Positions 2,408 to 50,299 of a stretch of DNA of 64,000 bases are shown here, in pieces. Both the position numbers and the translations under genes were made by a program. Position 1 is the first letter of the stretch; every line of letters begins with the position of its first letter. Origin of the DNA: Ginglymostoma cirratum (lineage: Eukaryota); contig JAHRHZ010000085.1 of assembly GCA_024137785.1 (NCBI GenBank), positions 2,580,107 to 2,644,106 on the forward strand, in the 5' to 3' direction. Under the pieces are notes generated by a model. That model ran no database searches. It was given only the letters and a program-made list of their open reading frames with translations, and had not been told where the DNA came from.

Positions 2408-2712
2408 CTTCTTTCGTAACAGTGTAGCTGGCTATTGCTGGAAATGAGCTTGAAACGTAGTAAACTTGACACATGTAGACTGTGTCACTTTTGGGTATAT
2501 TTGGCACGTCCATGGAGCTGACCACTTCATAAAGCTCCTCACCTTTTACCTGTTTTACATTTCTAAATCCAGTGAAGATTTGTGTACTGTTTCTGTGCCA
2601 AGTAAGGTTAAAGTGTCCGGATAAAAGCCAGATGTCCTGCATTGCAGCTTGAAAGAAGCAGATGAAGGATCTTCAGAACGTATCGATACAATGTGTAGGG
2701 GACCTGGTGAAG
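2408..2712 (-). pseudogene. Ig C1-set exon of the V-C1 receptor family (copy A), disrupted
   Basis: Translates as ..SASFKLQCRTSGFYP / FNLTWHRN..LYEVVSSM..VYMCQVYYVSSSFPAIASYTVTKE with a phase-1 donor G|GTAAGG at 2408/2407. It has a 1-nt deletion at ~2616, and the acceptor AG is changed to AT (2714-2713) relative to the 46549 paralog. Confidence 0.85.
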
Positions 2713-3241
2713 ATGCATTGTAAATAATAACATTTAAATAAATGTGGGCATTAGACGTCTACTCCAAAACTTAAAATGATTTAATGAACTAGCCAACTGT
2801 TACTTCTAGGTATGGCAACTGCATTGATCGCCATTATTTATGCTGGCAGGGGTTGGCATAACTTTTATCATGTAGGGACTTGTGGCTTGTGTGGTGTATT
2901 AATGGGGATAGGGTACGATGTTCTTTGGAGTGTCATTGCACTACATAATAGGGATTTTATGATTCAAAGGCATTTGTAATTTAATTTGGGCTTGAAAAAT
3001 TCCAAGACTTATTAAGTAACTGATGGAAATCATTCATTCAACTTAATGAGTATTGAGGCTGGAATCAAGCTGGGTCCCCAGTTCTATGAGGTAACAGTGT
3101 GTCACAATGCCACCCAACTGGAATCTTGTGATGGCATCGATACATAAACTGATAGAAGTATTTATTGAGATTGGAGTGGAAGTAATCCAATTTGGAACTG
3201 GGATCCTAAATCTAATCAAAGGAGAGCACAGAATTGTGAAG

Positions 3242-7910: not shown

Positions 7911-8515
7911 GGTGTCTTCAGGAAAGAGAGTTTATGGCCACTGACCAAGCAACACTAAAGGAACTGAGATAACTTTTCAAGTCAGATGGGGGGTGGCTTG
8001 GATGGCAATTTACAGGCAGTTGTGTTCCCATGTATCTGCTGCCTTGTTATTTGAGACAGTAGTCATGATGGATTTGGAAAATGATCTACAAATGTTCCTG
8101 GATTTGTCAGTGGAATTGTCCAAGTTTTACCACATTTGCAGATGAAATGTTTCAATAACTGAGGACTTGTGAATGGAGATGAACATTGTGCAATTATCAG
8201 TGAACAGCCGGAACACTGGTGCAATAGGAGAGAGAAGGTAAATGATGAAGCAGGTGAAGATGTTTGGGCCTAGGACATGAACGCAAGGACCACCTGGAGT
8301 GATATCCTGCAGCTGAAATATAACAACCTGAGCCATATTCCTTTGTGCTAATATAACACTGACCAGTGGAGATTACCCCGATTCCCTTTAACTCCAGTTT
8401 TGCTTGAGCTCCTTGATGCCAAACCCAGTCAAATGTGGCCTTGATGTCAAGGGCAGTCACTCTTTCCTCACCTTCAGACTTTTTTCTCCATTGAGTCTTG
8501 GAGCACAGAACCAGA
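7910..8515 (-). mobile_element. CR1/L2-group LINE RT fragments
   Basis: ALDIKATFDWVWH and VLGPNIFTCFI..LFTDNC RT motifs on the - strand. Confidence 0.7.
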
Positions 8516-8534
8516 GCCTTCAGTCCAACATGTT

Positions 8535-12610: not shown

Positions 12611-13036
12611 TATTGTTGGAAAAATTCAGCAAGTCTGGCAGCTTGTGGAGTGAAAGTTGTCAGAAATCACACAAAACCAGATTAGAGCCCAACAGGTTTA
12701 TTTCAAATCATAAGCTTTCAAAGCACGGCTCCTTGGTCACCTGAAAACTTGTGATTTTAAATAGACCTGTTGGAATATAACCTGGTGTTGTGTGACTTCT
12801 GACTTTGTCTACCCTAGGACAGCACTGGCATCTCCACATTGAGAGAAAGTAGAGTTAACGTTTTGGATCCAGTAACCCTTCTTCAGAGCCAAAACTCAAT
12901 TGAACTGTTCACAAGAAAACAACTGCATCAAAGATGCACATGAATGGAAATGTTGACTTTCTCAACATCATTAACATTCTGAACATAAATAACGAAATAA
13001 GCGGACACCACAGCAGCAAATAGATATTCTGGCTGC

Positions 13037-13331
13037 CTTCTTTCACAATAGTGTGTTTGACTTTTGCTGGAAATGAGTTTGAAACATGATGCACTTGACA
13101 AGTGTAAACTCTGTCACATTCAACTGCCTCTGACACCTCTAAGGTGCTGACCACCTCAAAGTCTGATGGTGTTTACTTGTTGGTCATTTCTAAATCCAGT
13201 CAAGACGTTTGTATTGTTTTTGTGCCAAGTAAAATTAAAGTCTTTTGGGTAAAAGGCAGAAGTTCTGCACGACAGAACGAAAGATGCATCTTCCAATGGT
13301 ACTGGTCACAAGTTTCAGGGGAGCCGTTAAG
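13037..13331 (-). pseudogene. Ig C1-set exon (copy B), frameshifted
   Basis: Acceptor ttcag|c at 13332/13331; LSCRTSAFYPKDFNFTWHKN / EVVSTLEV..VYTCQVHHVSNSFPA. Indels near the 5' end, a 2-nt deletion at ~13158, and a GC donor. Confidence 0.9.
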
Positions 13332-14042
13332 CTGAATTGTAAATAATAGAATTCAGATAAATCTGAACATTACAATCCTACTCCAAAGCTTCAACGATTC
13401 AATGAACAAACCATCTGCAGTTTCAGGGCAAGGTTTTTGCATTAGCCGTCATTATTTGCTTGGAGTAAACGTTATGTTTATCACGCAGTGACCCGCACTT
13501 CACCTCCCCCGCCCAAAGCAACTGATGCACCATTTCGAAGTTCAGCAAAATTGGTTTTTAAATTAAATACATATTAATTATTACAAATATATTTGGGATG
13601 TAATTTTGCATCCTTCTAATGACAACCAGTTTTGAACTGGATTTTAGTTTGTAGAAGCTGCGACAGCCGCAGTCCAAATGATCGTGACAGGAATTATGTT
13701 TTCAATGAGATACCGGGATATTCAAAATCTACAATCCCGCAGATAATATTTGTATCTCTTCAAATTGTTTCCCGATGCTGAGATTAGAAAAGGAAAACGG
13801 GTAGCTTTGAAGTTTGGTATTAACTGACTCTGCAATAGATACATTCAATACAATTTTCAAATGAAGTGCAAATGGTAATCTTCAAACTGTGACAGTTCCT
13901 AAAAGTTTCTCAGATTGTTGACATTTTCATTCCAAAGAAGTTGAATATTCATGTGAAATACATATATTTAGGAAAATGAATTTTATCCATCGTCGTTGTT
14001 CGGAGCAGCTAAGACACCATGTTTGTCTGCGGCGACACATAC

Positions 14043-14388
14043 CACATGCCATAAGTTGCACAACAGTTTCTTTCCCAACCGTTCGATGCTGATACTTGAC
14101 TACACAGTAATATGTTTCAGTGTCCCGGACAGTCACATTCAAAAGATTAAGGTAGGCTGCTTCTCCACCTGCAGTGAATAACTTTCTGCTATCCTCCAGC
14201 AGAAAGGTATTATGACCTTCTCTCCAACTGTAAGCGACAATATTTGAATGGTTGATTTCGAAGAAGAAAGGACATAGCAGGACAACGGATGAACCTCTCC
14301 GCGCGGTTATTCATTTATGATCCAGTTTTACCTTGGCTGAAATGCCCAAAGCAACTATGAACCGAAGATACTCGTTGAGATTAAACAT
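14043..14388 (-). pseudogene. Leader + Ig V-type exon (copy B) with in-frame TGA
   Basis: MFNLNEYLRFIVALGISAKVKLDHK*ITARRGSSVVLLCPF..YSW..LNLLNVTVRDTETYYCVVKYQHRTVGKETVVQLMAC, with a phase-1 donor GTATGT and a stop at 14313-14311. Confidence 0.9.
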
Positions 14389-15057
14389 TAAATCCTTGGA
14401 AGTGAGATTGGGTTTGGCTGCTCCATTTTTCACCAGCACAGACACCTTGCTTCTCTGGGTTGTAAACGTTTTCTAATTTTGTGAACAATCGGATGACTGT
14501 TGTTACAATAATTTGAAGGACGTGGGGATTTAGGGTGAAACTACAGCGACAGCCGTATTAAAAAGAAGAAAATGGGGGGCAATTAATCCCCTCTGACTCC
14601 AATAGGACTGAAAGGACTGAGAAAGAGTGTCGGATTAACTTGTCTGAAATCCCCTTCCTCATTACTTTTCAACATCATGTCTTTGACTCTCAGATATTGT
14701 ATGTACAAGTCATTCTCTGTGATTCTTCTGTGTGGCCCTTTTTACCAATAACTCTCACTGAAGACATGATGTCTGTTTGTCTAATCTAATGATGTTAATT
14801 ATCAGTCAGTATAGATTTGACTCTCTTTATCTTTGTACCAAGCCAACAACTGATGTCAAAGATGGTAACCAGGCACCACCATTTATGTAAACAAAAAAAT
14901 GCTGGAGATCACAGTGGGTCAGGCAGCATTCATGGAGAGAAAGCAAGCTAATGTTTCACGTGGCGATGACACTCTATCGGCTCAGAGTTTATGAACCGTC
15001 ATAGAGACTCTCAATGTTAACTGTCTTTATGAATACCTGCTAATAGGTGTCAAGCTC

Positions 15058-21146: not shown

Positions 21147-21301
21147 AAAACAAAAGATAAATTCTCCAGGCCACCTCAACTCTGACTTTTGTCAAACAGA
21201 CCCAGACTGTGTTCACACCTGAATATGTCCCCCCTTGATCCTTCCTGACCTATTTCCAGATTTAAAGATGAATGGCAACAGAACAAAACTCCAGATATTC
21301 A

Positions 21302-24785: not shown

Positions 24786-25869
24786 CAGTTTTTAAACAGT
24801 ACTCGTGGAAGTCTTGCAGGGGATTAATATCAAAGAAAAGAAGAAAATCTCAAAAATGTCAGATGGCTAATGCTATTCCACATTCAAAGGATAACAATTT
24901 GAATCTATATCGCATCTTAAAAATCACAGGGCTGAAAACAAGGTAAATATTGACTCAAACTTAGCATCAGTCCCATCCTTCAGTTGCATTTACAAACGTA
25001 ATTGATGACATGTGTGCAGTATGTTGCCATTTTACCAAGTTGTTGATATGTTTGAAACCTCATGTCATTAAAAGTCCATTGCAGCAGCGTGGAAAGTTTT
25101 TAGGAGCATAAATAAAGCAGATATGGATAAATCTTTCCCCTTCGTCGAGGTATCAATGTCAAGGTGCATCAATTAACGATGAGGAGCACATGATTTAGAG
25201 GGGTTTGAGGAATTTCATTTCACACAATGAGTTGTGAGTATCATGAGCGAACTGTCTAAAACAGCAATTGACATGGGAAATCTCAAGACATTTCAGAAAA
25301 ATTTAGGTGAGTACTTGAAACCATGTAGCATACAAGGATACAGGCCAAGTGCTGGGAAATGTGATTTAAATAAGTCAATGCTCAATGACCAGCACAGACA
25401 CATTGGCCAAAAGGCAGCTTTCCTTGCAGTTAAAAAAAAATGTGACTCTGAATCTCACATCAGCATGTTTATTGTTTAGGTTTGGGATTGTTATGTTCAC
25501 TTCTACTGGGAGATCAACACATCATGGTTCATGTTACCATTCAAGGGCAGTTTCTTCGACAAACATCACACTGAAATAAACACTCCGACATCCACCAGCT
25601 GTGGCTCTGCGATGCAGGTGTCAGATTTTTTGATGCTGTGTGTGATTTATTTAAGAATGTGATCAAAACTGTAATGATGAGAAATGAAAGTAAGCCGGTC
25701 GAATAAACCCAACTCATTCTTGTTAATATGACATCTTTTCCTGTACATTTTATAACACCACATTTTACCACGCCTCAAGCTGGACATTCACCAAAGGTGA
25801 ACATGCTGTGAGAAATATTGCTTAGATACCAGAAAGCCAATTGTTTCTGGGGACCTGGGCTTGAATCTC

Positions 25870-28800
25870 ATGTTGCCTCCCAGGTGCACGGGTCAGGGAT
25901 ATCTCAGATCGGCTGCAGAACATTCTGAAGGGGGAGGGCGAACAGCCAGTTTTCGTGGTGCGTACCAATGATATAGGTAGAAAACGGGATGAGGTCCGAC
26001 AAGCAGAATTTAGGGAGTTAGGAGCCAAGTTAACAAGCAGGACCTCAAAGGTCGCAATCTCAGGATTGCTACCAGTGCCACGTGCTAGTCAGAGCAGAAA
26101 CGAAAGAATAGCCAGGATGAATGCGTGGCTTGAGGGATGGTGCAGGAGGGAGGGGTTCAGATTTTTGGGACATTGGGACCGGTTCTGGGGAAGGTGGGGC
26201 TATTACAAATTGGATGGTCTGCACCTTGGCCGGACTGGAACCAATGTCCTTGGGGGTGCTTTTGCTAACACTGTAGGGGAGGGTTTAAACTAATGTGGCA
26301 CGGGAATGGGAACCAAATATTGGACAGGTTATTGGAATGAAAGGAGGTAGTAACTAAAGCCTGTAGGGAACTAGATAATGGAGTCAGCGAGACTAAAGGG
26401 AAGAGTAGGCAGGGAGCAGATGATGAACACAAAAGGACAGGTGGTCTGAGGTGCATTTGTTTTAATGCGAGAAGTGTAGTAGATAAGGCAGATGAACTTA
26501 GGGCTTGGATCGGTACCTGGGAGTGTGATGTTATTGCTATTAGTGAGGCTTGGTTGAGGGAAGGGCATGATTGGCAACTAGATGCCCCAGGATATCGATG
26601 CTTCAGGCGAGATAGAAAGGGAGTTAAAAGGGGTGGAGGAGTTGCATTACTGGTCAAAGACCATATCACAGCTGTATTGAAGGAGGGCACTATGGAGGAC
26701 TCGAGCAGTGAGGCAATATGGGTAGAACTCAGAAATAGGAAGGGTGCAGTAACAATTTTGGGGCTGTACTACAGGCATCCCAACAGCGAGCGTGAGATAG
26801 GGGTACAAATATGTAAACAGATTATGGAAATGTGTAGGAGCAACAGGGTGGTGGTGATTGGAGATTTTAATTTTCCCAACATTGACTAGGATTCACTTAG
26901 TGCCAGGGGCCAAGATGGAGCAGAATTTGTAAGGAGCATCCAGGAGGGTTTTCTAGAGCAATATGCATGTAGTCCAACTCGGGAAGGGGCCATACTGAAT
27001 TTGGTGTTGGGGAATGAGCCCAGCCAGGTGGTTGAAATTACAGTAGGGACTACTTTGGAAATAGTGACCACAATTCTGTAAGTTTTACAACACTCATGGA
27101 CAAAGATGAGAGTGGTCCTAAAGGAAGAGTTCTAAACTGGGGGAAGGCCAACTATACCAAAATTCGGCAGGATCTGGGGAATATAGATTGGGAGAAACTG
27201 TTTGAAGGGAAATCCACATGTGATATGTGGGAGGCTTTTAAAGAGAGGTTGATTAGAGTGCAGGAGAGACATGTTCCTGTGCAAATGAGGGATAGAAATG
27301 GCAAGGTTAGGGAACCATGGATGACAAGTGAAATTGTGAGACTAGCTGAGAGGAAAAATGAAGCATACGTAAGGTCTAGGTGACTGAAGACAGACGAAGC
27401 TTTGGAAGAATATAGGGCGAATCTAAAACGAGGAATTAAGAGGGCTAAAAGGGGACATGAGATATCTTTAGCAAACATGGTTAAGGAAAATCCCAAAGCC
27501 TTTTATTCGTAGATAAAGAGCAAGAGGGTAACTGGAGAAAGGATTGGCCCACTTAAGGACAAAGAAGGAAAGTTATGCGTTGAGTCAGAGAAAATGGGTG
27601 ACATTCTTAACAAGTCCTTTGCATCGGTATTCACCAAGGAGAGGGACATGACGGATGTTGAAGTTAGGGATAGATGTTTGATTACTCTCGGTCAAGTCGG
27701 CATAAGGAGGGAGGAAGTACTGGGTATCCTAAAAGGCATTAAGGTCGACAAGTCCCCAGGTCCTGATGGGATCTATCCCAGGTTACTGAGGCAAGCGAGA
27801 GGGGAAATAGCCGGGGCTTTAACAGGTATCTTTGCAACATCCTTAAACACGGGTGAGGTCCCGGAGAACTGGAGAATTGTTAATGTTGTCCCCTTGTTTA
27901 AGAAGGGTAGCAGGGATAATCCAGTTAATTACCGACCGGTGAGCCTGACTTCAGTGGTAGGGAAGTTGCTGGAGAAGATACTGAGGGATAGGATCTATTC
28001 TCATTTGGAAGAAAATGGGCTTATCAGTGATAGACAACGTGGTTTTGTGCAGGGAAGGTCATGTCTGAGCAACTGAACAGAATTCTTTGAGGACGTGACA
28101 AAGTTGATTGATGAGGGAAAGGCTGTAGATGTCATATACATGGACTTCAGTAAGGCGTTTGATCGGGTTCCCCATGGCAGGCTGATGGAGAAAGTGAAGT
28201 CGCATGGGGTCCAGGGTGTGCTAGCTAGATGGATAAAAAACTGGCGAGGCAACAGGAGACAGAGAGTAGTAGTGGAAGGGGGTTTCTCAAATTGGAGACC
28301 TGTGACCAGTGGTGTTCCACAGGGATCTGTGCTGGGACCACTGTTGTTTGTGATATACGTAAATGATTTGGAGGAAGGCATAGGTGGTCTGTTTAGCAAG
28401 TTTGCAGATGACTCGAAGATTGGTGGAGCAGCAGATAGTGAAGGGGACTGTCAGAGATTAAAGCAGAATATAGATAGATTGGAGAGTTGGGCAGATAAAT
28501 GGCAGATGGAGTTCAACCTGGGTTAATGCGAGGTGATGCATTTTGGAAGATCTAATTCAAGAGGAAACTATACAGTAAATGAAAAAGTCCTGGGGAAAAT
28601 TGATGTACAGAGAGATCTGGGTGTTCAGGTCCATTGTTCCCTGAAGGTGGTTATGAAGGTCAATAGAGTGGTCAAGAAGGCATACGGCATGCTTTCCTTC
28701 ATCGGACGGGGTACTGAGTACAAGAGTTGCAGGTCATGTTACAGTTGTATAAGACTTTGGTTCGCCCACATTTAGAGTACTGCGTACAGTTCTGGTCACC

Positions 28801-29320
28801 ACATTACCAAAAGGATGTGTATGCTTTCAAGAGGGTACAGAGGAGGTTCACCAGGATGTTGCCTGGTATGGAGGGTGCAAGCTATGAAGAAAGGTTGAGT
28901 AGACTAGGATTATTTTCATTAGAAAGACGGAGATTGAAAGGGGACCTGACTAAGGTCTACAAAATCATGAGGGGTATAGACAAAGTTGATAGCAAGAAGC
29001 TTTTTCCCCAGAGTGGGGAACTCAATTACTGGGGGTCATGAGTTCAAAGAGAGAGCAGGACAGGTTACAGGAGATATGCGTCGAAAGTTCTTTATGCAGA
29101 GGGTGGTGGGTGCCTGGAACACGTTGCCAGCGGAGGTGATACACGAAGACACGTTAGTGTCTTTTCAGATGTATCTGGACAGGTACATGGATGGACAGGG
29201 AGCAAAGGAATACAGACCCTTAGAAAATAGATGACAGGTTTAGACAGAGGATCTCGATTGGTGCAAGCTTGGAGGGCCGAAGGGCCTGTTCCTGTTCTGT
29301 AACTCTCTTTGTTCTTTGTC
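25870..29320 (+). mobile_element. Near full-length CR1 LINE (ORF1 SGNH esterase + ORF2 APE-RT), inactivated
   Basis: TNDI..DGLHLGRTGTNVL esterase; NARS, YYRHP and GDFNFP endonuclease; KSPGPDG, NYRPVSLTS, GVPQGSVLGP and KFADD RT motifs; several stops; TTGTTCT tail. It is inserted into a SINE (halves at 25846-25870 and 29325-29590). Confidence 0.95.
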
Positions 29321-32089
29321 CTTTGATGGCAGAAGGTGGAATTTGAATTCAATAAAAAATCTGTAATGAAGAGTCTAATGGTGACCATGAGACCATTGTA
29401 CAATTGTCAGGAACAGCCCATCTGGTTTACTTATGTCCTTTAGGGAATAAAATGACCATCTTTACCTGGGATGGCCTACATGTGACTCCAGACCCACAGG
29501 AATGATGCTAATTCTTATCTGCCCTCTGGGCAACTAGGGATGGGCAATAAATGCCAGCTTAGCCTGTGATGTGTCATCCGATAAAGGAATAGAAAAACAA
29601 AACTCCTTTAAAAACATAATTGTTTCGTTTGGTGATACTATTATTGAGCATCTAATGTCAAATGGCTAATGCTATTCAAAGTTCAAAGGATAACAATTTG
29701 AATTCATATCGCATCTTTAATATCATCGGGATGGAATCAAGGTAAATATTGACTCAAACTATCCATCAGCCCCATACTTCAGTTGCATTTGAAAATGAAA
29801 TTAATTACATATATCCAGTGTTTTGCCATTTTCCCAAGTTGTTAATTTATTTGAAACCACCTCGCATCAAACATCCATTGCAGCAGTGTCTCCAGTTATA
29901 AGGAAGATAGACAGAACAGATTGGGAGAAACATTTCCCCTCAGTATAGGCATCAATAAGAAGGGCACACTTTTAAGATAAGGAGTAGGTGGTTTAGAGGT
30001 GTTTGAGGAATTTTATTTCACCCACATGGTTGTGGGTACCTCGAACTAACTGTCTAAAAGAGCAACAGTGATGGGAAACCTTAAAACATTTCAGGAAAAT
30101 TGAGTTGAGTATTTGAAACCATGTAGAATATAAGGTGACAGGCCAAGTACTGGGAAATGGGATTTGAATAAATCGATGCTCGATGACCAGTACAGACACA
30201 ATGGCCTACAGGCAGATTTCCTTGCAGTTAAAATCTTCTGTGACTCTCACATCAGTGTGTTTATTGTTTATTGTTTAGGTTTGTGATTGTTACGGCCACG
30301 TCCACTGCGAGATTATCACATCATGGTCCATGTTACCGCTCAAAGGCCGTTTCATCAACAAACATCACACTCAAGTAAACACTCCGACCTCCACCAGTGA
30401 TGGCTCAGCGAAGTCAGGATCAGATTTCTGATACGATGTGTAATTTATTTCATAATGTGATCAAAAATATAACAATGAGAAATGAAATTAATCAGCATGA
30501 ATATTGGCAAAAATGTTGACTTGTGACTTCGTCAATTTTTAATTTTTTGATCATATTTCATTTTTCAAAATTCGTAACTTTTATCCTTAATAATACTGAA
30601 CCATAAGGGGAGGTATGTATATTTCCAGAATATCAGTCCCAGCAATTCAAACCTAGGCAGGATGTGGTGATGTATCTCAATTTTATCAAAAGTGCAAATG
30701 TCAAATTAGTGCTAGGTCATTCAGATCGAAATCAGTCATGATGGTAGTGGTCGAGAGTAACAAATGCATCAGAGCTAAGCATAGTCGGTCGGTAAGTTGT
30801 TATGAGGAAAGTTTGATGAGGAGCAGTAGCAGGAGGTATATGGGTGAGAGGGGAAGATGGGTTGGATGGGGTCAGATGTCTCGGCCTGTGGTGAGAGTGT
30901 TACATATCCGTATGTAGTGCTTAGTTCTTTTGGGTGAGTTAAACAGATGTGGTAAGACGGAGCTGTCTGTCGCAGTGGGATGGGGTCTGTTAAACAGGAG
31001 TCAGGGTTTTAAACAGACAGGAGTTACAGTCAGTTTTATTCTGATACTTCTTTTTTCGCCTTGTGACACACAGAAGCAGAGGATGTAGGACCAGGAGTTG
31101 GCCATTCGGCTCTTTGAGCCCAGTCGATTTTCTATGATCCTTTCTGATCATTTAATTCAATCCCCTGTTCCTGCTTTCTGCCCATAAACCATGATCCGTT
31201 AAGAGCTATATCTACATGTTTCTTGACAGTCTTCAATGTTTTAGTCTCAACAGTTTCCATGTAACTAAGAAGTAACAGGTAAGTAACAAACAGAGATGAT
31301 GCTTGCAAACCTCAACATGTTTGGCAGCACCTGTGCAAACAGAAATAAATAGAAATATCATTTCCCATCCAGGATGACCCTTCTTCAGAGCTGCTAAGTT
31401 ACCCAGAACCCTCTGAAGCCCCCGACTATAATTCAGAGTGTGATCCGTTTCAGTGGGCTCCAGGCACCAGGTGATTTCCCTCTGGAAATATAAACTTCCC
31501 AGACACTTAACACAATGTCAGTAAGTCACGACTTCCAGACATCCCAGTTGCACCCAGTCTCCAAGCATCCAGGGACTGGAAGAACTGAGCTTCATGAAAA
31601 TTCCCAATGATTGCCATTGTATTGGAGAATGAATAAACACAACTCGTGCTTGTTTATATGATTATTTTCCTGCACATTTTATTACAACGCATTTTATCAC
31701 GTCTCAAAACTGGGCATTCACCAAAGGTGAATGTGGAGCAAGAAATATTTCTTAGATGCCAGAAAGCCAATTGTTTGTTCGAATATTCTTCGCCTAATGA
31801 AAATTTCTTCTTTGCTGAAAACTACTTCATGCATTTCTAATTAATTAACAAATACACCACATGCTGACATGCATATCTGCACAACCCAGTGAAAGTCACT
31901 CCATCAAGGTAAGTTGCCATCTGTGGTAACTGACAGCAGGTTGGTGCTGAGAAATTGTGCTACTTGGAGCCATCTACATGTCGGTTTATTGTGCAATACG
32001 TACCATTTAACTGAGCTTACAGACAAGTGAAAATATTGTAGAGCTGAGCTCAATACATGAAACACAGGGAGGTGACGGCCTAACACGGC

Positions 32090-34015: not shown

Positions 34016-35278
34016 TGTCTCTGAAACAACGTAACGAACACAACAGGAAAATCAAGTGCTCTCGATTTTAAATTTGTCGAGGCATTTAAAAAATAATAAG
34101 AAAAGGGATTTCGACAGGGTAATCTGATATTGCTGCTCTGCTCTTGAGGATATTGGGGCGACAGGTTTATCATTGAGCCTCACTTTCCTGCTCGCATTGC
34201 AGGATGTAGCAATAGTTTCGCCTCCATGTCCTTCAACTTGGTACAGTTGCAGTGGGCTGCTTCTTCCCAGCATTTCATTTTAAGAAGCTAACAACACTGA
34301 AAACCAAAAGCACTTGTCCGTGTCTGTCGAACAAGGAGCCAACAAATCAAAACATACTATCGAGGATTCAGTGTGAAGCATTGCAGATTACAGCACTTCA
34401 ATTGCACATCTGAGCAAAGACAACTTGTGAAACGGACAAAGGTGTCTGTCACTGACATCCGTTCAAGCAACAGGTTCTCGATCGTGACCACACTCTGCGA
34501 TAAATTGTTTCATCTTCTCCCCGTCAAGGTTTTCCATCATTGTCTCTAAATCTATAACTCCCGCATCACTGACCTCAATATGAAGGTCACTTACTTTTTC
34601 CCCATCGGCCCATCTCAGTTTTGTGCATTCCAATGAAATTCCCCCTCAGACTCATTTTCTTTCCGTGGTAAAATCTTCATCCCACCCAATCCAATCACGT
34701 CTCAACAACAACCTCCCAAATACCTTCTGTACGTTCTCTAGTGTTGTCATTTTTGTTACAGTTTCCAGTTACAAAACCAGCAGATTTTATTTGAAAAGGC
34801 GTGCGTTTTTAAGTCAGAAAGTAGTCATGTGCTCATTGACGCACACAAACGTTTGTGACGAAGTTAGAGACACAGCTGAGCATTTAAGAATCATTTGTCT
34901 GTCCTGTTCTCAGTCACAACTAATGGTCTCACATTTTCTCTGCCAATATGTCTCCGTGTCATTCACTGTGGGAAGTCTGTCTGCTGTGCATCTTGTGTGC
35001 AGGTACATTTTTCTTTTGCTGTGCATTCACTGATCATAAGCAAGACACAACGTGAACTTACAGCTAGATTTAATAAATAAATGGATATTTTTCATTCTTG
35101 TTGTCTTTTTTTTTCAAGTCCGTTATTCCCAGAAATCATTTGTCACTGGGTCTGTCAGAAGAAAAATATAGAACATTCAATTAGCACAATAGTTTACAAA
35201 TGGGAGAATTAGTCGAACTGTAAAATGTGGTAAATTACTGTTGCATCAGTGGTCTGGAATAATGATGTTATTTGGGTG

Positions 35279-35636
35279 ATGCAGGCTGTCCTTCTGTTCG
35301 ATCTCAGTGTGTCTCCTTGGTTGACAGTTGCGGTGAGCAATTCGGCCAAAGTGAATCCTGATCTTACACGAAAAACGGTGCAGAGAAGTTCATCAGTTCT
35401 CATGCAATGTCCTTTCTCCTACGAGTTCGACGATTCAAATGTTGTTGCGCACTGGTGGGGAGAAGATAACAAAACCCTTCTGCAGGAAGATAGCAAAAAG
35501 TTCTTCCGTGTAATTAGAGGAGAAGCCAACCTTAATCTTCTGAATGTGACTGTCCGGGACGCTGGAACATATCACTGTGCAGTCACATATCAGAAACGAA
35601 AGCTTGGGAAAACTGCTGTGCAACTTACTGTATATG
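35279..35636 (+). CDS. Leader + Ig V-type exon of a V-C1-TM-ITIM receptor (copy D)
   Basis: Open frame MQAVLLFDLSVSPWLTVAVSNSAKV..VLMQCPF..HWW..ANLNLLNVTVRDAGTYHCAVTY..LGKTAVQLTVY, with a consensus phase-1 donor G|GTAAGT at 35636/35637. The exact start codon is uncertain. Confidence 0.85.
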
Positions 35637-35824
35637 GTAAGTGTCACCCCAGATAAACACGGAGTCTTAGCTGCTTGAAAACAATCAACAACAGTAATCA
35701 AAACAATTTATTGAACACAATAAAATATTGGCAGTTTAAGATGAAACGTGTTCAAGAATATGGAGACCTTGGAGAAACAATAACACCTCAAAGTTTGAGA
35801 TCTACACTCTATTAAAAATAAATC

Positions 35825-36625
35825 ACTTGTGGGAGGTGGGCATCACTGGCTGGCCAGCAGTTATTGCCTGTTCCTAGTTGTCCTTGACAAGGTGGTGGTG
35901 AGCTGCCTTCTTGAACTGCTGCAGACCATGTGCTGTAAATAGACTCACAATGCCATTAAGGGGAAATTACAGGATTTTCACTCAGTGTCAGTGAAGGAAC
36001 AGTGATGTATTTCCAAGTGAGGATGGTGAGTGGCTCGGGAGAAACTTGCAGGTGGTGGTGTTCCCATATAATTGCTGCTCTTGCCCTTCTAGATGGTAGT
36101 TATCGTGGGTTTGGAAGGTGTTGACTGAGCACTTTTGGTGAATTTCTGCAGTACATCTTAAAGTTAGACATTGCTGCTGCTGAGTGTCTGCGGTGTAGTG
36201 ACTGAATGTGGTGCCAATCAAGTGAGTGACTTTTTACTGGAAGGTGTCAAACTTCTTAAGTGCTTTTAGACCTGTAGACACCAGGCAAATGGGGACCATT
36301 CCAACACACTTCTGACTTGTGCCTTGCAGATGGTGGACAGGCTTCGGACAGCCAGCGGTTGAGTTACTCGCTGCCGTATTCCCAGCCTCTGGCGTCCGGT
36401 TCTATTTATATGGCTCGCCCAGTTCTGTTTCTGCTCAATGGTAACCCCAAAATGTATATAGTGGGGAATTCACTGATGGTGATGCTACTGAATGTTAAGG
36501 GGTGGATGGTTAGATTGTTCCTTATCCGAGATGGTGTTTGCCTGGCATTCATGTGGCCTGCAACGTTCCTGTCCCCTTTTCAGCCCAAGCTCGGATGTTG
36601 TCCAGTTTTTGCCATACTTGGTCAT
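35825..36625 (-). mobile_element. CR1/L2-group LINE 3' portion in intron
   Basis: Reverse-complement similarity to 11810-12610. Confidence 0.75.
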
Positions 36626-37134
36626 GGATTGCTTCAGTTTTATGCATTTAACTTTTGCAGGGAAATTGATTGCAATACTTCAAAAAAAATTTGTATGTGA
36701 ATACGGAGTGACAGGATGAGTATCCTTGAAGTTTTCTGCAATATCATGCATTTTGAAATGTTCTTTACTTCACAAGAAGAGCCAAATTCTCAGTCCCATC
36801 ACTTGGATTTTTTTTTGTTTAATTCCTAGGATCCAGGTCCAATTCCTCATCCTGTTGGCAAAAGATAAGTGCAGCATGATGATTCAAACATGTTTCTAGT
36901 ATTAAGCAGTAACAAAATCTGGAAACATTTTTTCTAAATATTCAGGAGGTATAATGAAAGGATCTGACTGTGTCTTTTCATCTGATAAACATAACATCAA
37001 TTTCATGTACTCCTCATAGCAACAATTAGTGAAACAGTCGTGCTGGAAATAAGTTGTTTTGGTCACTTCAAAGGTACTTTTTTTTGCTGAAGATGCAAAT
37101 TCGAATTATCTAATTTGTGTTATTTGCCTTTCAG

Positions 37135-37439
37135 CTCCACCAGCTCCTCTGAAAATTGTCTCAGTGCCATCCGAAGACCTTTTTTCTGTTTCTCTGCGAC
37201 TCCAGTGCAGGACGTCTGACTTTTACCCAAAAGACTTTAACCTGACTTGGTACAAAAATGGTACAAACATATTGACAGGATATAGGAATGAACAGCAGGC
37301 AAAACATGACGATCTTTATGAAGTCGTCAGCACCTTGGAGTTGCAAGATGCAGTTGAGAGCGAGACAGTTTACACCTGTCAAGTATATCAGCTTCAAGCT
37401 CATTTCCAGCAAATGCCAGCTACATTGTTACGAATAAAG
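37135..37439 (+). CDS. Ig C1-set exon (copy D), 1-nt deletion near the 3' end
   Basis: Acceptor tttgcctttcag|; APPAPLKIV..LQCRTSDFYPKDFNLTWYKNG..DLYEVVSTLEL..VYTCQVY. The paralog-matching SSSFPANASYIVTNK resumes only in a shifted frame after ~37390. Donor GT at 37440. Confidence 0.85.
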
Positions 37440-38019
37440 GTATCATTTCACAATATGTGGCACATTGAATGCTAACACATCATTCAAGATGGGTAGATAT
37501 GTAGAAAGTAGTAATCACAATTATTTGCATGTGACAATATCAAAGATATTTATTTGCCTGCAATTATGTCAAAGTCGAAATTAGGCCCAATTTTATGGAT
37601 TAAAGTTTTCTTTCTTCATGCTGTTTGGACCTGATATGTAGTTATCAGATATGAATTTGCCAAAACTAGATATCAGTTTTCAACATAGGTCACATAATTA
37701 TTTTCTTCACACACTGACGACTCGCAAAGGGCTGCATGGTCAATGTTAATTCTTCTGAAAGGGTGAAGGGTATCAAATTTGGTCAGGTCACATGTGAAGT
37801 ACTGCGTGCAGTTCTGGTTGCCCTACTAGAGAAAGGATATTATTAAACTAGAAAGAATGCAGAAAATATTTCCTAGGATGCTAAGTGCACTGGAATGTTT
37901 GAGTCATAAGGAGAGGCTGGATAGGCTGGGACATTTTTTTTTCCCCTGGAACATAGGAGACTGAGGGCTTCAATTATAGAAGTCTCGAAAATCATGAGAG
38001 GCACAGATAAATATATAGG

Positions 38020-38245
38020 CAGAGATAGGAGGAACTGCCGATGCTAGAGAATCTGAGATAACAAGGTGTAGAGCTGGATAGACACAGCAGGCGAAGCAGC
38101 ATCAGAGGAGCAGGAAAGCTGATGCTTTGGGTCTAGACCCTTCTTCAGAAATGGGGGAGGGGAAGGGGATTCTGAAATAAATAGGGAGGGGGGAAGGTGG
38201 ATAGAAGATGGATAAATGAGAAGACAGGTTCTGAAGAAGGGTTTA
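38020..38245 (-). mobile_element. Penelope terminal fragment within a CR1 relic (~37795-38010)
   Basis: Reverse complement of ~23710-23920. Confidence 0.75.
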
Positions 38246-38312
38246 CATTTAGACCTGTGTATTTTCAGTTTCTGTTGTAATTCCTAATTTTGAATTTATA
38301 TTAACATTACAG

Positions 38313-38426
38313 ATTTTGCCTCTAAAATCGATACCACTATGGCTGCCGGTTGTGCCTCTCGTGCACTTGCAATTCTCATATTGACCGTGATGATTGCCAA
38401 GGGTTTTCTGTTCTTTGTCACCAAAG
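38313..38426 (+). CDS. Transmembrane exon (copy D)
   Basis: attacag| .. |gtatga, 114 nt, phase 1-1; DFASKIDTTMAAGCASRALAILILTVMIAKGFLFFVTK. Confidence 0.75.
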
Positions 38427-38841
38427 GTATGAACAGGATAGAAATGTTTCACTCAAATTAATATAATTGGGAGCTGAATTTCTGAAGTGTGCAATATAAA
38501 CAACTATTTAATGTGAAACCTCCTACAAACATGTACCTTGCTTCAGACCAAACATAAAGTACAAATTTTGAAGTGTCACTTTGCTAAGTTGTATCAGTCT
38601 AGATCAAAATTGTGATGGTGAGATTCGCTGCTGAAAGAAGTTTCTATTGCTCAAACATCAAAACATAAATTCAAAACATCTGCATGTAACGTTTAGAGCT
38701 GTATTGCGAAACTGTTGTTCCGATTGTACCCTGTTTACAAATGTCGAATAGTAGTCAAGTTGCTTTTTGTTCCTTTGGTTTGCTGATGAGGACAGGTATC
38801 AGCATTTTTCGTTGCTGACTTCTGTTATTTTTATTTCTCAG

Positions 38842-38894
38842 ATCGGGGAAAGAAAAAAATCAATAAATCCAACTCAGCATCAAGATGTGGTGAG
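38842..38894 (+). CDS. First cytoplasmic exon (copy D)
   Basis: Strong acceptor ttatttttatttctcag|; basic stop-transfer-like DRGKKKINKSNSASRCGE. A phase-0 exit requires a GC donor at 38895. Confidence 0.6.
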
Positions 38895-40514
38895 GCAAAT
38901 TTCCTACATTCTATTTGTTTTAATTTTCAAGACTAGTTGAACAATTAAGCTGGGAACACATACATATATTTCTAACATGTCAAAATAAGTCTTGGAAATT
39001 TCATCAGCTCTCAAAAGCACAATTTCAGCTGAATAAAAGAAAAATAAAGAAAATAGAAAATGGTAGGGAGTTTCGTGAACTGTTGCAACTATTTTAAATT
39101 GTCAAACAGAGGTTTGAAGCTGACAAATGGTTTTGATTTCTGTTTTCTTTCACACTTCACAAGTGACAGTGCGCTGAATAATTTTGCCACATTGATTACA
39201 GACATTATAATCAAAGCTGATTACAATGGGGTGATGACTATTCTGAATGGTAGGTTTCCAGGTGCAGATAGATATGATTGCTCTGTCCTTCCTTCCTACA
39301 CCGTTCAAAATTCACTCATGGATTAGTCTGAGTTCAGCGATTATGTCTGACTTTTCCAAGCAACTCTACCAAACAGCTAAATATATTTCGCAGACAGCTT
39401 GCCACAAGTTGGCTTCCTTCGAAGGCTTTTAATGTCAGATGTCTGTCTGAGAGTGCAACATGCTGCAGCATCATGCAATCTTGGAAAACAAATAGACGAG
39501 CTGTTGTGATGCAAACGTCTCTCATTTTTTGATTTTCAAAATGTGGATATCAGTGACATAAGAGAAGAACCTTCTTATCTGTGGCAACTGAAACGGAGCA
39601 GATGGGACTTATTCAGGAATAACTGATAACAGTTTGGTAAAACTTGAAGTCTTTTCACTCTTCACAGGACAAAATGCAATTGCAAATATTTATTTTTAAC
39701 TGCAGTTGGATGCCGTGCACACCAGCAGAAGCAACTTCTTTAAATGCATTTTAAAGCACTTAAAGTCTTTTAATTAATTCAACAGCTTTATTATCTCAGT
39801 TTCAGTCATGGATCTGAATTTGCTTTGTAAAGCAATTTTCATTTTCCTTCCTTGAGTATAATACTGCAAAAAGTACCTTCCTCTTTCATTGCATCATTGC
39901 TTCTCACGAAAATTATAAGTGGCAATTATTTGAAATGAATTAGTAATGCCTTTCTGAAGAAGGGTCACTTGACTTGAAACATTAACTCTGATTTCAAACA
40001 TTCCTTCACTGTAAATTAGTTACATTAGCTCGTCAACTAGACAGAAGGAATAACTGTACTTACCACTGATATTAGAAAATTAATTTTAGAATCACTCTGT
40101 TCCCTTATGAATAGGGGAAGGTAATTATTTCAATAGTGCGTCTAAATGGTCATAAATAAAGGTGTTGAAGTGAACATAAAAGTGCAGTGCGTTTTCAAAG
40201 AATTTGCGAGGTATACTTGATGCCTGACAGTATGTGTAAAGTAAATTATTGATGTTTTAAGTCAGAAAATGTGTCAACTATTTCGGGAGGAATACATTCA
40301 GGTTAGGGACAATGAAAATATGTGACAAGTATGGTGCACTTTTGTCGAAAAGTTAATCCACAATATTTCAGTGCTTGAAAATGTACTCTTTGGTCTCCTG
40401 TGAATTATTTCTTAATCATAACTAATTTTGTTTTCTCTTTCCATCTGATCCACCGTTCATGAAACAATAAAACACAGGCTAAGCATTGCACCTCGACATC
40501 AGAGGACTTTAATA

Positions 40515-40710
40515 AAAACCAAAAGAACTGCGGATTCTGTAAATCAGAAACAAAAATAAAGTTGCTGGAAAAGCTCAGCAGGTCTGGCAGCACTTGTGAA
40601 GGAGAAAACAGAGTTAACATTTCGGGTCCAGTGACCATTCCTCAGTTCTGTTTTCTCTTTCACATCTGCTGCCAGACCTGCTGAGCTTTTCCAGCAAATT
40701 TGTTTTTGAT
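40515..40710. mobile_element. Palindromic PLE-type mini-element, second family
   Basis: gttgctggaaaagctcagcaggtctggcagca and its reverse complement; further copies at 42860-43090 and 59260-59485, with single arms at ~10645, 12610, 17280 and 41050. Confidence 0.7.
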
Positions 40711-42021
40711 CAGAGCACTTTATTCTGTTAACTATCACAGTGCAGCTGCACTATTTCACAGGAAGATGTGCAGTAATGGAGTAAAGACTTTGACATAATT
40801 TTCTGAAGACCTCCAAGAAAGGAATTCAATTTTGCTGCCCCTGCAGTACATAAGTGGGTCAATTCTGGACGACATACTATTTTTAAAAGGATGTGAGCCT
40901 CAGTGGCAAGGCCAGTATTTGGTGCCAATAACTGTTTCCTATTAAAAGTCCAGCAGCTCACCAGCTTGCTTGACTAACTGCAGTCCAACGTTGTTGCCAG
41001 GGAGGGATTTTAGGCGAACCCTGCACCATCTATTCTCCATCTATCTACGAACAAAAACAGGAATTGCTGGAAAAACTCTGCAGGTTTAGTAGCATTTGTG
41101 GAGAGAAATCAGAGTTAATGTTTCAGGTCAAATGATCCTTCCTCAGAACGACATTACTAATTTATTTCAAATAATTGCCACTTATAATTTGAGTGAGAAG
41201 CAATGGGACTTCTGGTTTATATTTATTGTAACCAAACAATGACAAGTTTATTTTTGCTGCATTTAATAAATTCTATTGCAAGCTCAATTTGTGCAGAATG
41301 TAACAAAACAGGAAATCACCTCTCAGAATTCAAAACCTCATTAAATTGAATTGATGAATGCATCCTTTTTGTAGAACACTGCTTAATTGCAGTGTTTCCC
41401 TGGTGACTTTAACTTAAAAGTATATTACCGTTAATGATATCGAAAAAATAATGTATGCTTGTGAATAGTTGTGCTTTTCCTGGTACGAAACAGTTTAAAG
41501 TAAGAAACTGTAAAGTATAACAATTGCAATGAAGTGTTAGCAAACTCTGTACCACAATCTTTAAGAACACACTCCTGCAGATGCTGGAATCTGTGCTGAA
41601 GACAACAAATGCTGGAGATCAGAAATCAAGGGTTACGGGGAGAGTGCGGGTCAGTGGAGTTGAAATGCCCATCAGCCATGATTAAAATGGTGGAGTGGAC
41701 TCAATGGGTCGAATGGACTTACTTCCACTCCTATGTCTTATGGTCTTATGGTCTTATCACAGCAGGTCAGACAGCATCCATGGAGAGAGAGAAAGCTAAC
41801 ATTTCGAGTCTGGATGACTATTTAACAGACCTGTAATGAAGAATCATCTAGTCTGGAAACGTAAGCTTGCACTGCCTCCATGAATGTTGTCCAGCCTGCT
41901 GCGATTTCCAGCATCTGTTCTTTTGCAATACAACAAACTAATTGTCCATGTTAAGAACGTATGTTTGTCTCTTTACTCCAAAACAAAATAATGAAATGAA
42001 TATTGAATCTTGACTTTATAG

Positions 42022-42130
42022 AGAAAACGAGGGACGTGTGAGGATAAGTTGACATATGCTGCTCTTTATAGAGTTGGTTCTGAGGATGGCATAATGCCTA
42101 AACAACTGGTAGAAATCACAATATATAGAG
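42022..42130 (+). CDS. Cytoplasmic exon with ITIM LTYAAL (copy D)
   Basis: tttatag| phase 0: RKRGTCEDKLTYAALYRVGSEDGIMPKQLVEITIYR; ITIM at 42049-42066; donor GAG|GTACAT. Confidence 0.7.
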
Positions 42131-42274
42131 GTACATTTAAGGTCATATGTGTAAATAATGAGCTGATTCATCATAATGAGTTGATTTCAGGATGATGTTG
42201 GAAGTTGCTTGTGTGTAATTTTCATCTAGAATGATTTAAATGAATGGTAATTCATTCTCAATGTTGTTTTTCAG

Positions 42275-42391
42275 ACAAAACACTGCATGACAGACAGCAG
42301 GCTGATTTACCTTGCTCTGAAATTCACTGATTCCAGGACACCATTGAAACCCAAACACCAAGAAGAAAGGTCTAGTGATTGCAGCGATTAA
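42275..42391 (+). CDS. Terminal cytoplasmic exon with ITIM LIYLAL (copy D)
   Basis: tgtttttcag| phase 0: TKHCMTDSRLIYLALKFTDSRTPLKPKHQEERSSDCSD*; ITIM at 42302-42319. Confidence 0.65.
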   Translation, partial: TKHCMTDSRLIYLALKFTDSRTPLKPKHQEERSSDCSD

Positions 42392-48068: not shown

Positions 48069-50204
48069 GAAAATCAGAGACTATCAGTTGTGCCTGAGAA
48101 CAACATTGATTGTTAGATGCTCGTCTCTGTTTCTAATTTAATCACGTATTTGGTTGCTGAATGAATTGTCTTTGTGAATACCTGCTAATAGCTGTCTAGA
48201 TCAGTTTGTTCCCTTCTGACTTGTTACTGTCCATGTGGTGAAATGATCATTTCAGGGATTGTGGTTGCCGATCAAAAGTGCTGCTTTGTCTTGTGAGATG
48301 ACATTCTTCTGAGTGTGTTATCCGTAAGATCATAAGACCATAAGACCACAAGACACAAGAGCAGAAATTAAGCCATTTGGCCCATCGCGTCTGCTCCGCC
48401 ATTCAATCATGGCTGATAAGTTCCTCAAATCCATTCTCTCCCGCTTTCTCCCCATAACCCCTGATCCCCTTGATAATCAAGAACCTATATATCTCAGTCT
48501 TAAAAGTTCGCAATGAAATGGCCTCCACAGCCTTTTCTGGCAGTGAATTCCATAGATTCACTACTCTCTGGCTGAAGAAGTTTCTCCTTATCTCTGTTCT
48601 AAAAGGTCTCCCATTTACTCTAAGGCTGTGCCCTCAGGTGCTAGTCTCTCCTACCAATGGAAGCATCTTCTCAACATCCACTCTGTCCAGGCCATTCAGT
48701 ATTCTGTAAGTTTCAATTTGATGCCCCCTCATCCTTCTAAACTCCAATGAGTATAGTCCCAGAGCCCTCAAACATTCCTTATACGTTAAGCTTTTCATTC
48801 CTGGGACCAGTCTCGTGAACTTCCTCTGAGCCCACTCCAGGGCCAGCACATCCTTCCTGAGACATGAGAACCAAAACTGCACACAATACTCCAAATGTGG
48901 CCTGACCAGGCCTTATAAAGCCTCGGTAGTGTATTCCTGCTTTCATATTCAAGTCCTGGACTAGAACTCTTAAGTCTTTTTGCATTTCAGACTTCTGAAT
49001 CTTCTCCCCATTTAGAAAACAGTCCATGCTTTTATTCTTCCTACCAACGTGCATGAAGTCACACTTTCCCATGTTGTACTCCATCTGCCACGTCTTTGCC
49101 CACTCTCCTAAATTGTCCAAATCCTTCTGCAGCCTCCCTGCCTCCTCAATACTGCGTGTCCCTCCACCTATCTTTATAACGTCTGCAAACTTAGCTAGAA
49201 TACCCACAGCTCCTTCATCTAGATCATTAATGTATAAAGTGAAAAGCTGTGGTCCCAACACCGACATTTGCAGAACACCACTTATCATCAGCTGCCATCC
49301 TGAGAAAGACCCTTTTATCTCCACTCTGCTTTCTGCCAGACAGCCAATCTTCTCCTCATGCCAGCACCTTGCCTCGAACACCATGGGCCTTTATCTTACT
49401 CAGCAGCCTCTTGTGCGGCACCTTCTTGAAGTCCAGGCTCTACTTGGTCTACCCTGCTCATTACTTCCGCAAAGAATCCTAGCAGATTTGTCAGGCATGA
49501 CCTCCCTTGATGAAACCATGTTGACTTTGCCCAATTGTACCATACACTTCCAAATATTCAGAAATCTCAATCTTCACAATGGACTCCAAAATCTTACCCA
49601 AGACCGAGGTTAAGCTAATTGGCCTATAATTTTCCGTCCTTTGCCTCACTCCCTTTTTAAACAAGGGTGTCACGTTAGCAATTTTCCAGTCCTCTTGGAC
49701 CCTCCATGACACTAGCGATTCCTCAAAGATCTCCACGAATGCTTCCACTAATTCTGCAGCTATCTCCTTTAGAATTCTGGGGTGTAGTCCATCTGGTCCA
49801 GGTGGTTTATCCACCCTCAGGCCAATCCGTTTTACTAGCACCTTTTCCTTGGTGATAGCCACCATATTCAGATCTGCACCCGACTCATTTGAATTTCCGG
49901 CATGTTACTCATGTCTTCCACGGTGAAGACTAACACGAAGTAATTATTCAGTTCATCAGCCATTACTATGTTCCCCTGTACTATCTCCCCAGTGTCAGTT
50001 TCCATTGATCCAATGTCCACTTTTGCTTCTCTTTTATCCTTTATATATCTAAAGAAACTCTTACAGTGTTCATATATAGTACTGGCTAGCTTACCATCAT
50101 ATTTAATCTTCTCCCTCCGACTTTCTTTTTTTTTGTTACCCTCTTTGTAAGCTCCCCAATCCTCTGGTTTCCTGCTGTCTTTAGCCACATTACATGCTTT
50201 CTCT

Positions 50205-50299
50205 GATAACAAGCATGGGGCTGGATGGACACAGCAGGTCAAGCAGCATCATAGGAGCAGGAAAACGTGACGTTTCGGGCCTAAACCCTTCATCAGAAA
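50205..50299 (-). mobile_element. 95-bp Penelope terminal insertion with intact hammerhead core
   Basis: TSD ACATGCTTTCTCT (50192-50204, 50300-50312); the - strand starts tttCTGATGAagggtttaggcccGAAACGTC. Confidence 0.85.

What the first reader, a model, noticed from the sequence alone, without database searches (positions are those of the whole stretch)
35279..42391. Six-exon non-rearranging V-C1-TM-ITIM immune receptor gene
Seen: leader/V (35279-35636), C1 (37135-37439), TM (38313-38426), a basic juxtamembrane exon (38842-38894) and two tyrosine-motif exons (42022-42130 LTYAAL; 42275-42391 LIYLAL). They are in order and bounded by AG acceptors; the TM and tail exons are invisible in the ORF track. 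Known: (I/V/L/S)xYxx(L/V) is the ITIM consensus. C1-set domains are largely confined to Ig, TCR, MHC, B2M, tapasin, SIRP and B7-H6-type proteins. Inference: this is a SIRP/NITR-like inhibitory receptor with an antigen-receptor-like V-C1 ectodomain, possibly a poorly characterised cartilaginous-fish family. I cannot assign orthology.
Basis: partly seen in the sequence, partly recalled or inferred. Interest (0 to 1): 0.8.

Follow-up and report, generated by a model that had tools for sequence, protein, structure and literature searches.

The report
Broken copy, shark paired-receptor family
As assembled, this gene is a frameshifted, likely dead copy from a large shark, ray and chimaera gene family whose intact members likely act as paired off-switch and on-switch receptors on immune cells, and which we did not find described as a family in the papers we could search.

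Summary
The six exons are real, but they do not splice into the claimed two-ITIM receptor. The C1 exon is 305 bp, one base short against 14 of 14 paralogs, so translation stops inside the TM exon at 246 aa. The first tyrosine exon is 109 bp, not 111, which puts LIYLAL out of frame. The real leader is a separate exon (34948-35002). This copy is probably a pseudogene (about 0.8); no same-species reads were available.

The family is alive. There are 62 V and 67 C1 matches in this genome, nearly all on two contigs. Intact paralogs carry four tyrosine motifs, and a relative's contigs are spliced V-C1 and JM-Y1-Y2. Homologs occur in sharks, rays, skate and chimaera, on one chromosome per species, in both ITIM-tailed and TM-arginine short-tailed forms. 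V is short (Cys-Cys 54-60) and mostly germline-joined to a J-like strand. C1 domains form their own clade, apart from SIRP; a sister relationship is not rejected. Neighbours are GOT2, CNOT1 and SLC38A/OSGIN-like genes (human 16q-like), not MHC or SIRP-locus markers. It likely works like SIRPα/β but is not shown to be SIRP or NITR.

The parts
34948..35002 (+).
   Evidence: conserved in 6 close paralogs; matches the N-terminus of Stegostoma P0001
35328..35636 (+). Short V-type exon (309 bp, open; Cys-Cys 56; G strand germline-joined, GxG eroded)
   Evidence: 81% identical to Stegostoma P0001/P0002
37135..37439 (+). C1-set exon, 305 bp, one base missing between 37390 and 37391 (frameshift)
   Evidence: 14 of 14 paralogs carry the base; two contigs of a relative show one gap in this exon
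38313..38426 (+). TM exon (114 bp); read out of frame as assembled, premature stop at 38382-38384
38842..38894 (+). Juxtamembrane exon: 48 bp to a GT donor (out of frame with Y1) or 53 bp to a GC donor (in frame); intact copies have 47 or 44 bp
42022..42130 (+). Tyrosine exon 1 (LTYAAL); 109 bp against 111 in intact copies
   Evidence: the same shift is in Stegostoma P0001
42275..42391 (+). Tyrosine exon 2 (LIYLAL), out of frame after the 109-bp Y1; terminal PVYAAV motif lost
2409..2713 (-). Paralog C1 exon, frameshifted
13023..14391 (-). Paralog remnant: V with in-frame stop plus broken C1
46255..47867 (-). Paralog remnant: leader, V with two stops, broken C1

Best explanation
This locus is a frameshifted, likely non-functional copy of a chondrichthyan multigene family of V-C1-TM receptors whose intact members likely work as paired inhibitory and activating immune receptors. 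Shown: exon anatomy, the frameshift, intact paralogs, spliced contigs in a relative, two tail types, a separate C1 clade, and the neighbouring genes. Inferred from established ITIM biology: in inhibitory members a ligand engages the short V domain, Src kinases phosphorylate the twice-repeated tyrosine pair (LTYxxL ... VYAE, LTYxxL ... VYAAV), and SHP-1/SHP-2 are recruited to damp leukocyte activation, as in SIRPalpha. Members with a TM arginine and a short tail would instead pair with an ITAM adaptor (FcR-gamma/CD3-zeta type). The cluster evolves by birth and death. This copy's mRNA would carry a stop far upstream of the last junction and likely be degraded, or give a 246-aa product without a proper anchor. 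Ligand and cell type are untested.
For: Frameshift private to this copy, 14 of 14 paralogs intact at that base, not in a homopolymer. Stop at CDS nt 741, last junction at 940. All 6 nearest full-length paralogs also carry stops or frame breaks. 16 of 62 V matches and 12 of 67 C1 matches contain stops. dN/dS to the nearest paralog is 0.067/0.071 (V) and 0.071/0.088 (C1), with intron identity equal to exon identity. Intact four-tyrosine genes at C85:2564923(-) and C85:2231142(-) have exons of 312/306/114/44/111 bp; Stegostoma P0002 is also intact. Spliced V-C1 and JM-Y1-Y2 contigs in a relative (one study). Of 76 family proteins, 37 have an ITIM-like tail, 7 a TM Arg with short tail by a strict rule, 19 other, 13 no TM. 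Top language-model neighbours of P0002 are SIRPalpha clusters at 0.95.
Against: No reads of this species were listed (best word share 0.12), so an assembly error or a heterozygous allele is not excluded. dN/dS rests on 5 synonymous changes per exon, and falls to 0.41-0.86 against more distant paralogs. The 109-bp Y1 and 48-bp JM states are shared with annotated genes in Stegostoma (P0001) and Rhincodon (P0004), so they may be tolerated tail variants rather than decay. No functional data exist for any member; SHP recruitment and adaptor pairing are by analogy. The runs with spliced contigs are not on record as RNA.
Confidence: 0.72

Rival explanations
1. The C1 deletion is an assembly error or one allele, and the gene is alive as V-C1-TM with zero ITIMs (GT donor) or one ITIM (GC donor), like Stegostoma P0001 or Rhincodon P0004.
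For: Leader, V and TM exons are open with canonical splice sites. Only the C1 lesion is both private and fatal. The other shifts have counterparts in other species.
Against: The context is not a homopolymer. Long exons of ordinary genes read open in this assembly (345 aa; 385 aa). Divergence from the nearest paralog is neutral-like.
Confidence: 0.15
2. The family is the cartilaginous-fish SIRP lineage, moved to another chromosome and expanded with a single C1; it would read a CD47-like self marker.
For: Four-tyrosine tail laid out like turtle SIRPalpha P0015. SIRP-like automatic names. Atlas features. The AU test does not reject family plus SIRP as one clade, p 0.42. No other clear SIRP V was found in the genome.
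Against: Lungfish SIRP V gives no hit on C84/C85 at E<=0.001. V Cys-Cys is 54-60 against 62-65. The C1 tree keeps the two as separate supported groups, 96/95 and 97/91. NSFL1C-like, SNPH-like and PSMF1 markers are on other contigs.
Confidence: 0.25
3. This copy survives as a C1-skipped V-TM-two-ITIM isoform, using the GC donor and a cryptic donor at 42108.
For: That join is open and contains LTYAAL and LIYLAL. A V-TM-tail form without C1 exists for Heterodontus (P0060).
Against: It needs exon skipping plus two weak donors. The relative's contigs use the normal Y1 donor and the GT JM donor.
Confidence: 0.05
4. The ectodomains are B7-type ligands (B7-H6/ICOS-L-like) rather than receptors, and the tails give reverse signalling.
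For: Top structural matches are ICOS-L and B7-H6, Z 14.4-14.7, rmsd 3-4 A over about 181 residues. Some members are auto-named NCR3LG1-like or CD276.
Against: Z ties within 1 with antibody light chains and TCRs (13.8-14.0). B7-like V domains are long (Cys-Cys 68-73) and lack the J-like motif. C1 tree is separate. Paired tail types fit receptors.
Confidence: 0.08

Closest known systems
SIRPalpha/SIRPbeta (signal regulatory proteins)
   Same: Non-rearranging V plus C1 ectodomain; twice-repeated tyrosine pair in the tail (P0002 against turtle P0015); paired inhibitory and charged-TM forms.
   Different: One C1; shorter V; separate C1 clade; neighbours GOT2/CNOT1/SLC38A-like, not NSFL1C/SNPH; activating forms have Arg near the TM start; at least 60 loci.
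UrIg/UrIg2 (non-rearranging shark Ig; PMC12227049, passages read)
   Same: Germline-joined VJ plus C1-type domains in elasmobranchs; 9dmx is among the Foldseek hits.
   Different: UrIg2 is V-C1-C2-C3, IgG-Fc-like and linked to the MHC or antigen-receptor complex. This family is V-C1-TM with signalling tails, multigene, on contigs without MHC class I.
B7-H6 (NCR3LG1), ICOS-L, TAPBPR
   Same: Two-domain V-C fold, top Z scores; source of several automatic names.
   Different: Long V without J-like motif; separate in the C1 tree; ligands or chaperones rather than ITIM receptors (recalled).
NITR (teleost) and MDIR (skate) (definitions recalled, no call)
   Same: Clustered, expanding paired receptors with V domain, J-like motif and ITIMs.
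   Different: The second domain here is C1-set, not I/V-type. No NITR or MDIR sequence was available for a tree.
Tetrapod VJ-C1 genes and PRARP (cited in PMC10751288, passages read)
   Same: Non-rearranging VJ(-C1) architecture.
   Different: Primary papers not held, orthology untested. All 42 family-type clusters or proteins named are chondrichthyan; about 20 further representatives were not named.

Membership tests
SIRP | V plus C1-set ectodomain, non-rearranging | tested here: met
   Pfam V-set and C1-set; one exon each; a single C1 only
SIRP | Four-tyrosine ITIM/ITSM-type tail in inhibitory members | tested here: met
   Met in intact paralogs; not encoded in frame by the window copy
SIRP | SIRP-type V domain | tested here: not met
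   Cys-Cys 54-60 against 62-65; lungfish SIRP V search gave 4 weak hits, none on C84/C85
SIRP | C1 nests with SIRP C1 in a tree | tested here: inconclusive
   Separate supported groups; AU p 0.42 for one joint clade; 94 columns, 8 SIRP rows from 3 proteins
SIRP | Linkage to NSFL1C/SNPH/PSMF1 (human 20p13 order recalled) | tested here: not met
   SEP genes on C87 and C52, syntaphilin family on C77 and C138, PI31 on C138. Contig level only; chromosome membership of the contigs is unknown
SIRP | CD47 binding | not tested
   No shark CD47 sequence fetched; no complex prediction run
NITR | V plus I (V/C2-like) second domain (definition recalled) | tested here: not met
   Second domain C1-set E 5.4e-14 against I-set 0.027
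NITR | Germline J-like GxG motif in V | tested here: met
   65 of 77 family V rows, isoforms included; eroded in the window's subclade
UrIg / MHC-linked non-rearranging antigen receptors | MHC linkage and multi-C Ig-heavy-like body | tested here: not met
   MHC class I on C2, C146, C197; one C1 then TM; C1 outside the Ig/TCR group
B7-H6 / B7 family | Long V without J motif; C domain grouping with B7-H6/tapasin | tested here: not met
   same-genome outgroup labels are my own motif-based guesses
MDIR; PRARP; Xenopus VJC1 genes | Sequence orthology | not tested
   No named sequences or primary papers available

The most novel reading that the evidence does not exclude
An unnamed, chondrichthyan-wide paired receptor complex: at least 60 non-rearranging short-VJ-C1 genes with SIRP-like inhibitory tails and arginine-TM activating partners, on a human-16q-like chromosome outside the MHC and SIRP loci. 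It would be the shark counterpart of KIR/LILR/NITR-type 'missing-self' receptors and a second, massively expanded living model of the pre-RAG VJ-C1 receptor.
Probability: 0.4. Interest if true: 0.75.

Novelty: new variant of a known kind. Interest (0 to 1): 0.52.

Why it matters
The single gene is a likely pseudogene and matters little. The family matters for two open questions. First, which germline receptors balance inhibition and activation in cartilaginous-fish NK-like and myeloid cells (that no KIR/LILR/Ly49 equivalent is established there is my recall). Second, what non-rearranging VJ-C1 genes looked like before RAG invasion, a search that PMC12227049 and PMC10751288 describe as active. 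RefSeq scatters the members under at least eight misleading names (SIRPA-, SIRPB1-, TAPBPL-, NCR3LG1-, CD276-, H-2/HLA-, Ig-lambda-, CDON-like), which would hide a single family. Intact inhibitory genes are located here and an Arg-TM candidate nearby, so it is directly testable.

Tried and rejected
No RNA holder was listed for this species, and all holders had word shares of 0.12 or less; this is no evidence on expression. Two 2026 RNA runs of a relative gave exon depth of 0.24 or less, tissue unknown; not used.

The V-domain trees are dominated by long branches: outgroups attach at two places inside the family. The tree is the quick substitute for an unfinished search. Neither is used for deep relationships.

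A Piezo Pfam hit beside the cluster (E 2.9e-5) had no PDB match and was rejected. MLYCD lies on C223, against a perfectly kept 16q23 block. About 90 kb downstream of it held no OSGIN copy. The left flank gave no neighbour gene other than a further C1 exon. Pfam runs on flank ORFs: 5 of 112, 1 of 54 and 7 of 148 had hits.

SIRPalpha was not among the listed structural rows, which does not exclude it. The wide VIA search was not run. The OSGIN-like exon could not be named by the Atlas.

Ten literature searches listed no paper describing this family; seen as listings and abstract starts only. PMC12227049 and PMC10751288: passages only, 'SIRP' and 'ITIM' 0 times in each. PMC3964593: the one held supplement file searched, SIRP/ITIM/MDIR 0; other supplements were not seen. 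Ohta 2019, Fu 2019 and Flajnik 2012 were not held and could already describe these genes. Earlier scan findings: none. One of 6 candidate intact paralogs gave no open join and two needed off-size exons.
Full report
Observation. The six stretches exist in order on the + strand. V and C1 match Pfam V-set (E 1.9e-8) and C1-set (E 5.4e-14). The leader is a 55-bp exon at 34948-35002, conserved in six close paralogs, and V is a 309-bp exon starting at 35328. C1 is 305 bp: all 14 paralog C1 exons aligned carry one more base between 37390 and 37391, outside any homopolymer. As assembled, the frame ends at 38382-38384 in the TM exon after 246 residues, 199 nt before the last junction. The JM exon is 48 bp to a GT donor, which gives a tail with no ITIM, or 53 bp to a GC donor. 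Y1 is 109 bp, so LIYLAL is out of frame, and the terminal PVYAAV motif is gone. The ITIM consensus occurs 144 times in the six frames of the window, so the motifs count only because they are conserved.

Is it dead? All six nearest full-length paralogs also carry stops or frame breaks. 16 of 62 V matches and 12 of 67 C1 matches in the genome have internal stops. The window holds three more broken copies on the minus strand. Divergence from the nearest paralog is neutral-like (dN/dS 0.067/0.071 and 0.071/0.088; intron 94% against exon 93%), on few sites; more distant pairs give 0.41-0.86. Against this, no same-species reads were listed, and the Y1 and JM shifts recur in annotated Stegostoma and Rhincodon proteins (P0001, P0004), so only the C1 deletion is private and fatal. 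I put pseudogene at about 0.8.

The family is alive. The V search found 62 matches: 44 at C85:1.78-3.58 Mb, 5 elsewhere on C85 and 13 on C84 (lower bounds). Two paralogs give clean open joins with exons of 312/306/114/44/111 bp and four tyrosine motifs; a third has three motifs; two others opened only with off-size exons and one not at all (6 tested). In a relative's runs (one study, not on record as RNA), one 697-base contig joins V to C1. A 1914-base contig joins JM to Y1 to Y2 with the longer Y1, and another joins TM straight to Y2. Homologs are named from Stegostoma (81% in V), Rhincodon, Hemiscyllium, Chiloscyllium, Heterodontus, Heptranchias, Scyliorhinus, Mustelus, Carcharodon, Cetorhinus, rays, skate and Callorhinchus. 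In each chromosome-level species they share one longest-contig length, that is, one chromosome. Every named family member is chondrichthyan; bony-vertebrate hits are SIRPs or longer multi-C1 proteins outside the clade. The closest homologs are carpet sharks, so the genome is likely one (inference).

Anatomy of intact members. Of 76 family proteins, 37 have an ITIM-like tail, 7 a TM arginine with a short tail by a strict rule, 19 are other and 13 lack a TM (the rule is crude and misfiles a few). The inhibitory tail repeats an LTYxxL ... xYxx pair twice, as turtle SIRPalpha does, and four times in Heterodontus P0005. V is short: Cys-Cys 54-60, against 62-65 in two SIRPs and 68-73 in ten other V domains. 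65 of 77 family V rows end in a germline GxG[TS] J-like strand; the window's subclade has eroded it. An AlphaFold model of P0001 (9-row alignment, block pLDDT mostly 84-95 over the domains) shows no C'' strand and at most a vestige of C'. The best PDB sequence hits of V are I-set domains. Structure search ties ICOS-L, B7-H6, PD-L1, light chains and TCRs within Z 13.8-14.7, so fold does not assign a family.

Relationships. In a 58-row C1 tree the 25 family rows form one group (96/95). The 8 SIRP rows plus one unlabelled shark gene form another (97/91), and Ig/TCR (98/96) and MHC (97/89) are separate (same-genome outgroup labels are my motif-based guesses; 25 of 79 family rows used). An AU test does not reject family plus SIRP (p 0.42). 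V trees are uninformative. Lungfish SIRP V finds nothing on C84/C85. ESM Atlas features rank SIRPalpha clusters first (0.95).

Neighbours. C85 carries an OSGIN-like exon at 3.86 Mb and an amino-acid transporter at 3.90-3.93 Mb. It also carries a mitochondrial aspartate aminotransferase (GOT2) at 5.26-5.29 Mb next to a second transporter. CNOT1 is on C84. The labels OSGIN1, SLC38A8 and SLC38A7, and the placing of all five on human 16q21-23, are recalled, not from a call. MLYCD is on C223, which argues against a perfectly kept block. MHC class I is on C2, C146 and C197. An NSFL1C-like gene is on C87 (the PDB hit cannot separate it from its paralog), and syntaphilin-family and PSMF1 genes are on C138. 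Which contigs share a chromosome is unknown.

How it likely works. Inferred, not shown: intact ITIM members bind a cell-surface ligand through the short V, are phosphorylated, and recruit SHP-1/2 to restrain leukocytes. Arg-TM members would signal through an ITAM adaptor. Rapid duplication and loss, of which this window is a snapshot, fits pathogen-driven turnover of paired receptors. The ligand is unknown; CD47, MHC class I and pathogen surfaces are the candidates.

Novelty. The working principle is known (SIRP, NITR, KIR/LILR), and individual proteins are in RefSeq under scattered automatic names. Ten searches listed no paper on the family. Two key papers, read in passages, do not mention SIRP or ITIM. 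Three primary papers on VJ-C1, PRARP and B7 evolution were not held, and most subscription journals are missing, so prior description is quite possible. Verdict: this locus is a likely pseudogene; the family is a new variant of a known kind. Interest 0.52.

Noticed in passing
window 38313-38426 and paralogs: The TM of this subclade keeps a lysine in its C-terminal half (MIAKG). Five of six close paralogs have a 48-bp JM; in four it stops the tail just after the membrane, as in Rhincodon P0004. Possibly a conversion of inhibitory genes to tail-less, adaptor-coupled ones.
   Followed up: partly
L113 (G000:C61:1855764-1860991), L110 (C46:15996352 region), L107 (C42:23344682 region): Three further apparently non-rearranging genes with a germline GxGT V exon next to a C1 exon (one with an added I-like domain), outside this family. 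The C46 C1 fell with SIRPs in the tree, on a long branch.
   Followed up: partly
L101-L104 (G000:C62:25.55-25.66 Mb): A long run of C1-set exons; two of them are the sister group of this family's C1 in the tree (93/88).
   Followed up: no
P0005 (Heterodontus), P0023 (Scyliorhinus), P0042 (Amblyraja): Internal duplications: tail doubled to eight tyrosine motifs, TM plus tail doubled, or C1 doubled.
   Followed up: no
window 42273 (run X5): A relative's contig joins TM directly to the last exon, skipping both JM and Y1: an ITIM-less splice form.
   Followed up: no
window 25479-25691, 30278-30486, 56283-56333, 58259-58467: Repeat-derived sequence matches the first ~107 residues of RefSeq XP_059507783 (P0002), so that model's N-terminus is likely a mis-annotated transposon fragment in place of the leader exon.
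   Followed up: no
P0003 (Hemiscyllium XP_060693506): The model appears to fuse two neighbouring family genes and is named CDON-like.
   Followed up: no
window 8445-9416, 21223-23523, 25865-29041, 48634-50248, 60052-62255: Long LINE/Penelope-type reverse-transcriptase and endonuclease ORF remnants fill the space between family copies (type recognised by eye).
   Followed up: no
G000:C84:5808 and C84:33633: Two of the closest paralogs (93% and 88% DNA identity in V) sit at the very start of another contig, C84, while the window's cluster is internal to C85: a possible mis-join, haplotype piece or recent segmental duplication.
   Followed up: no
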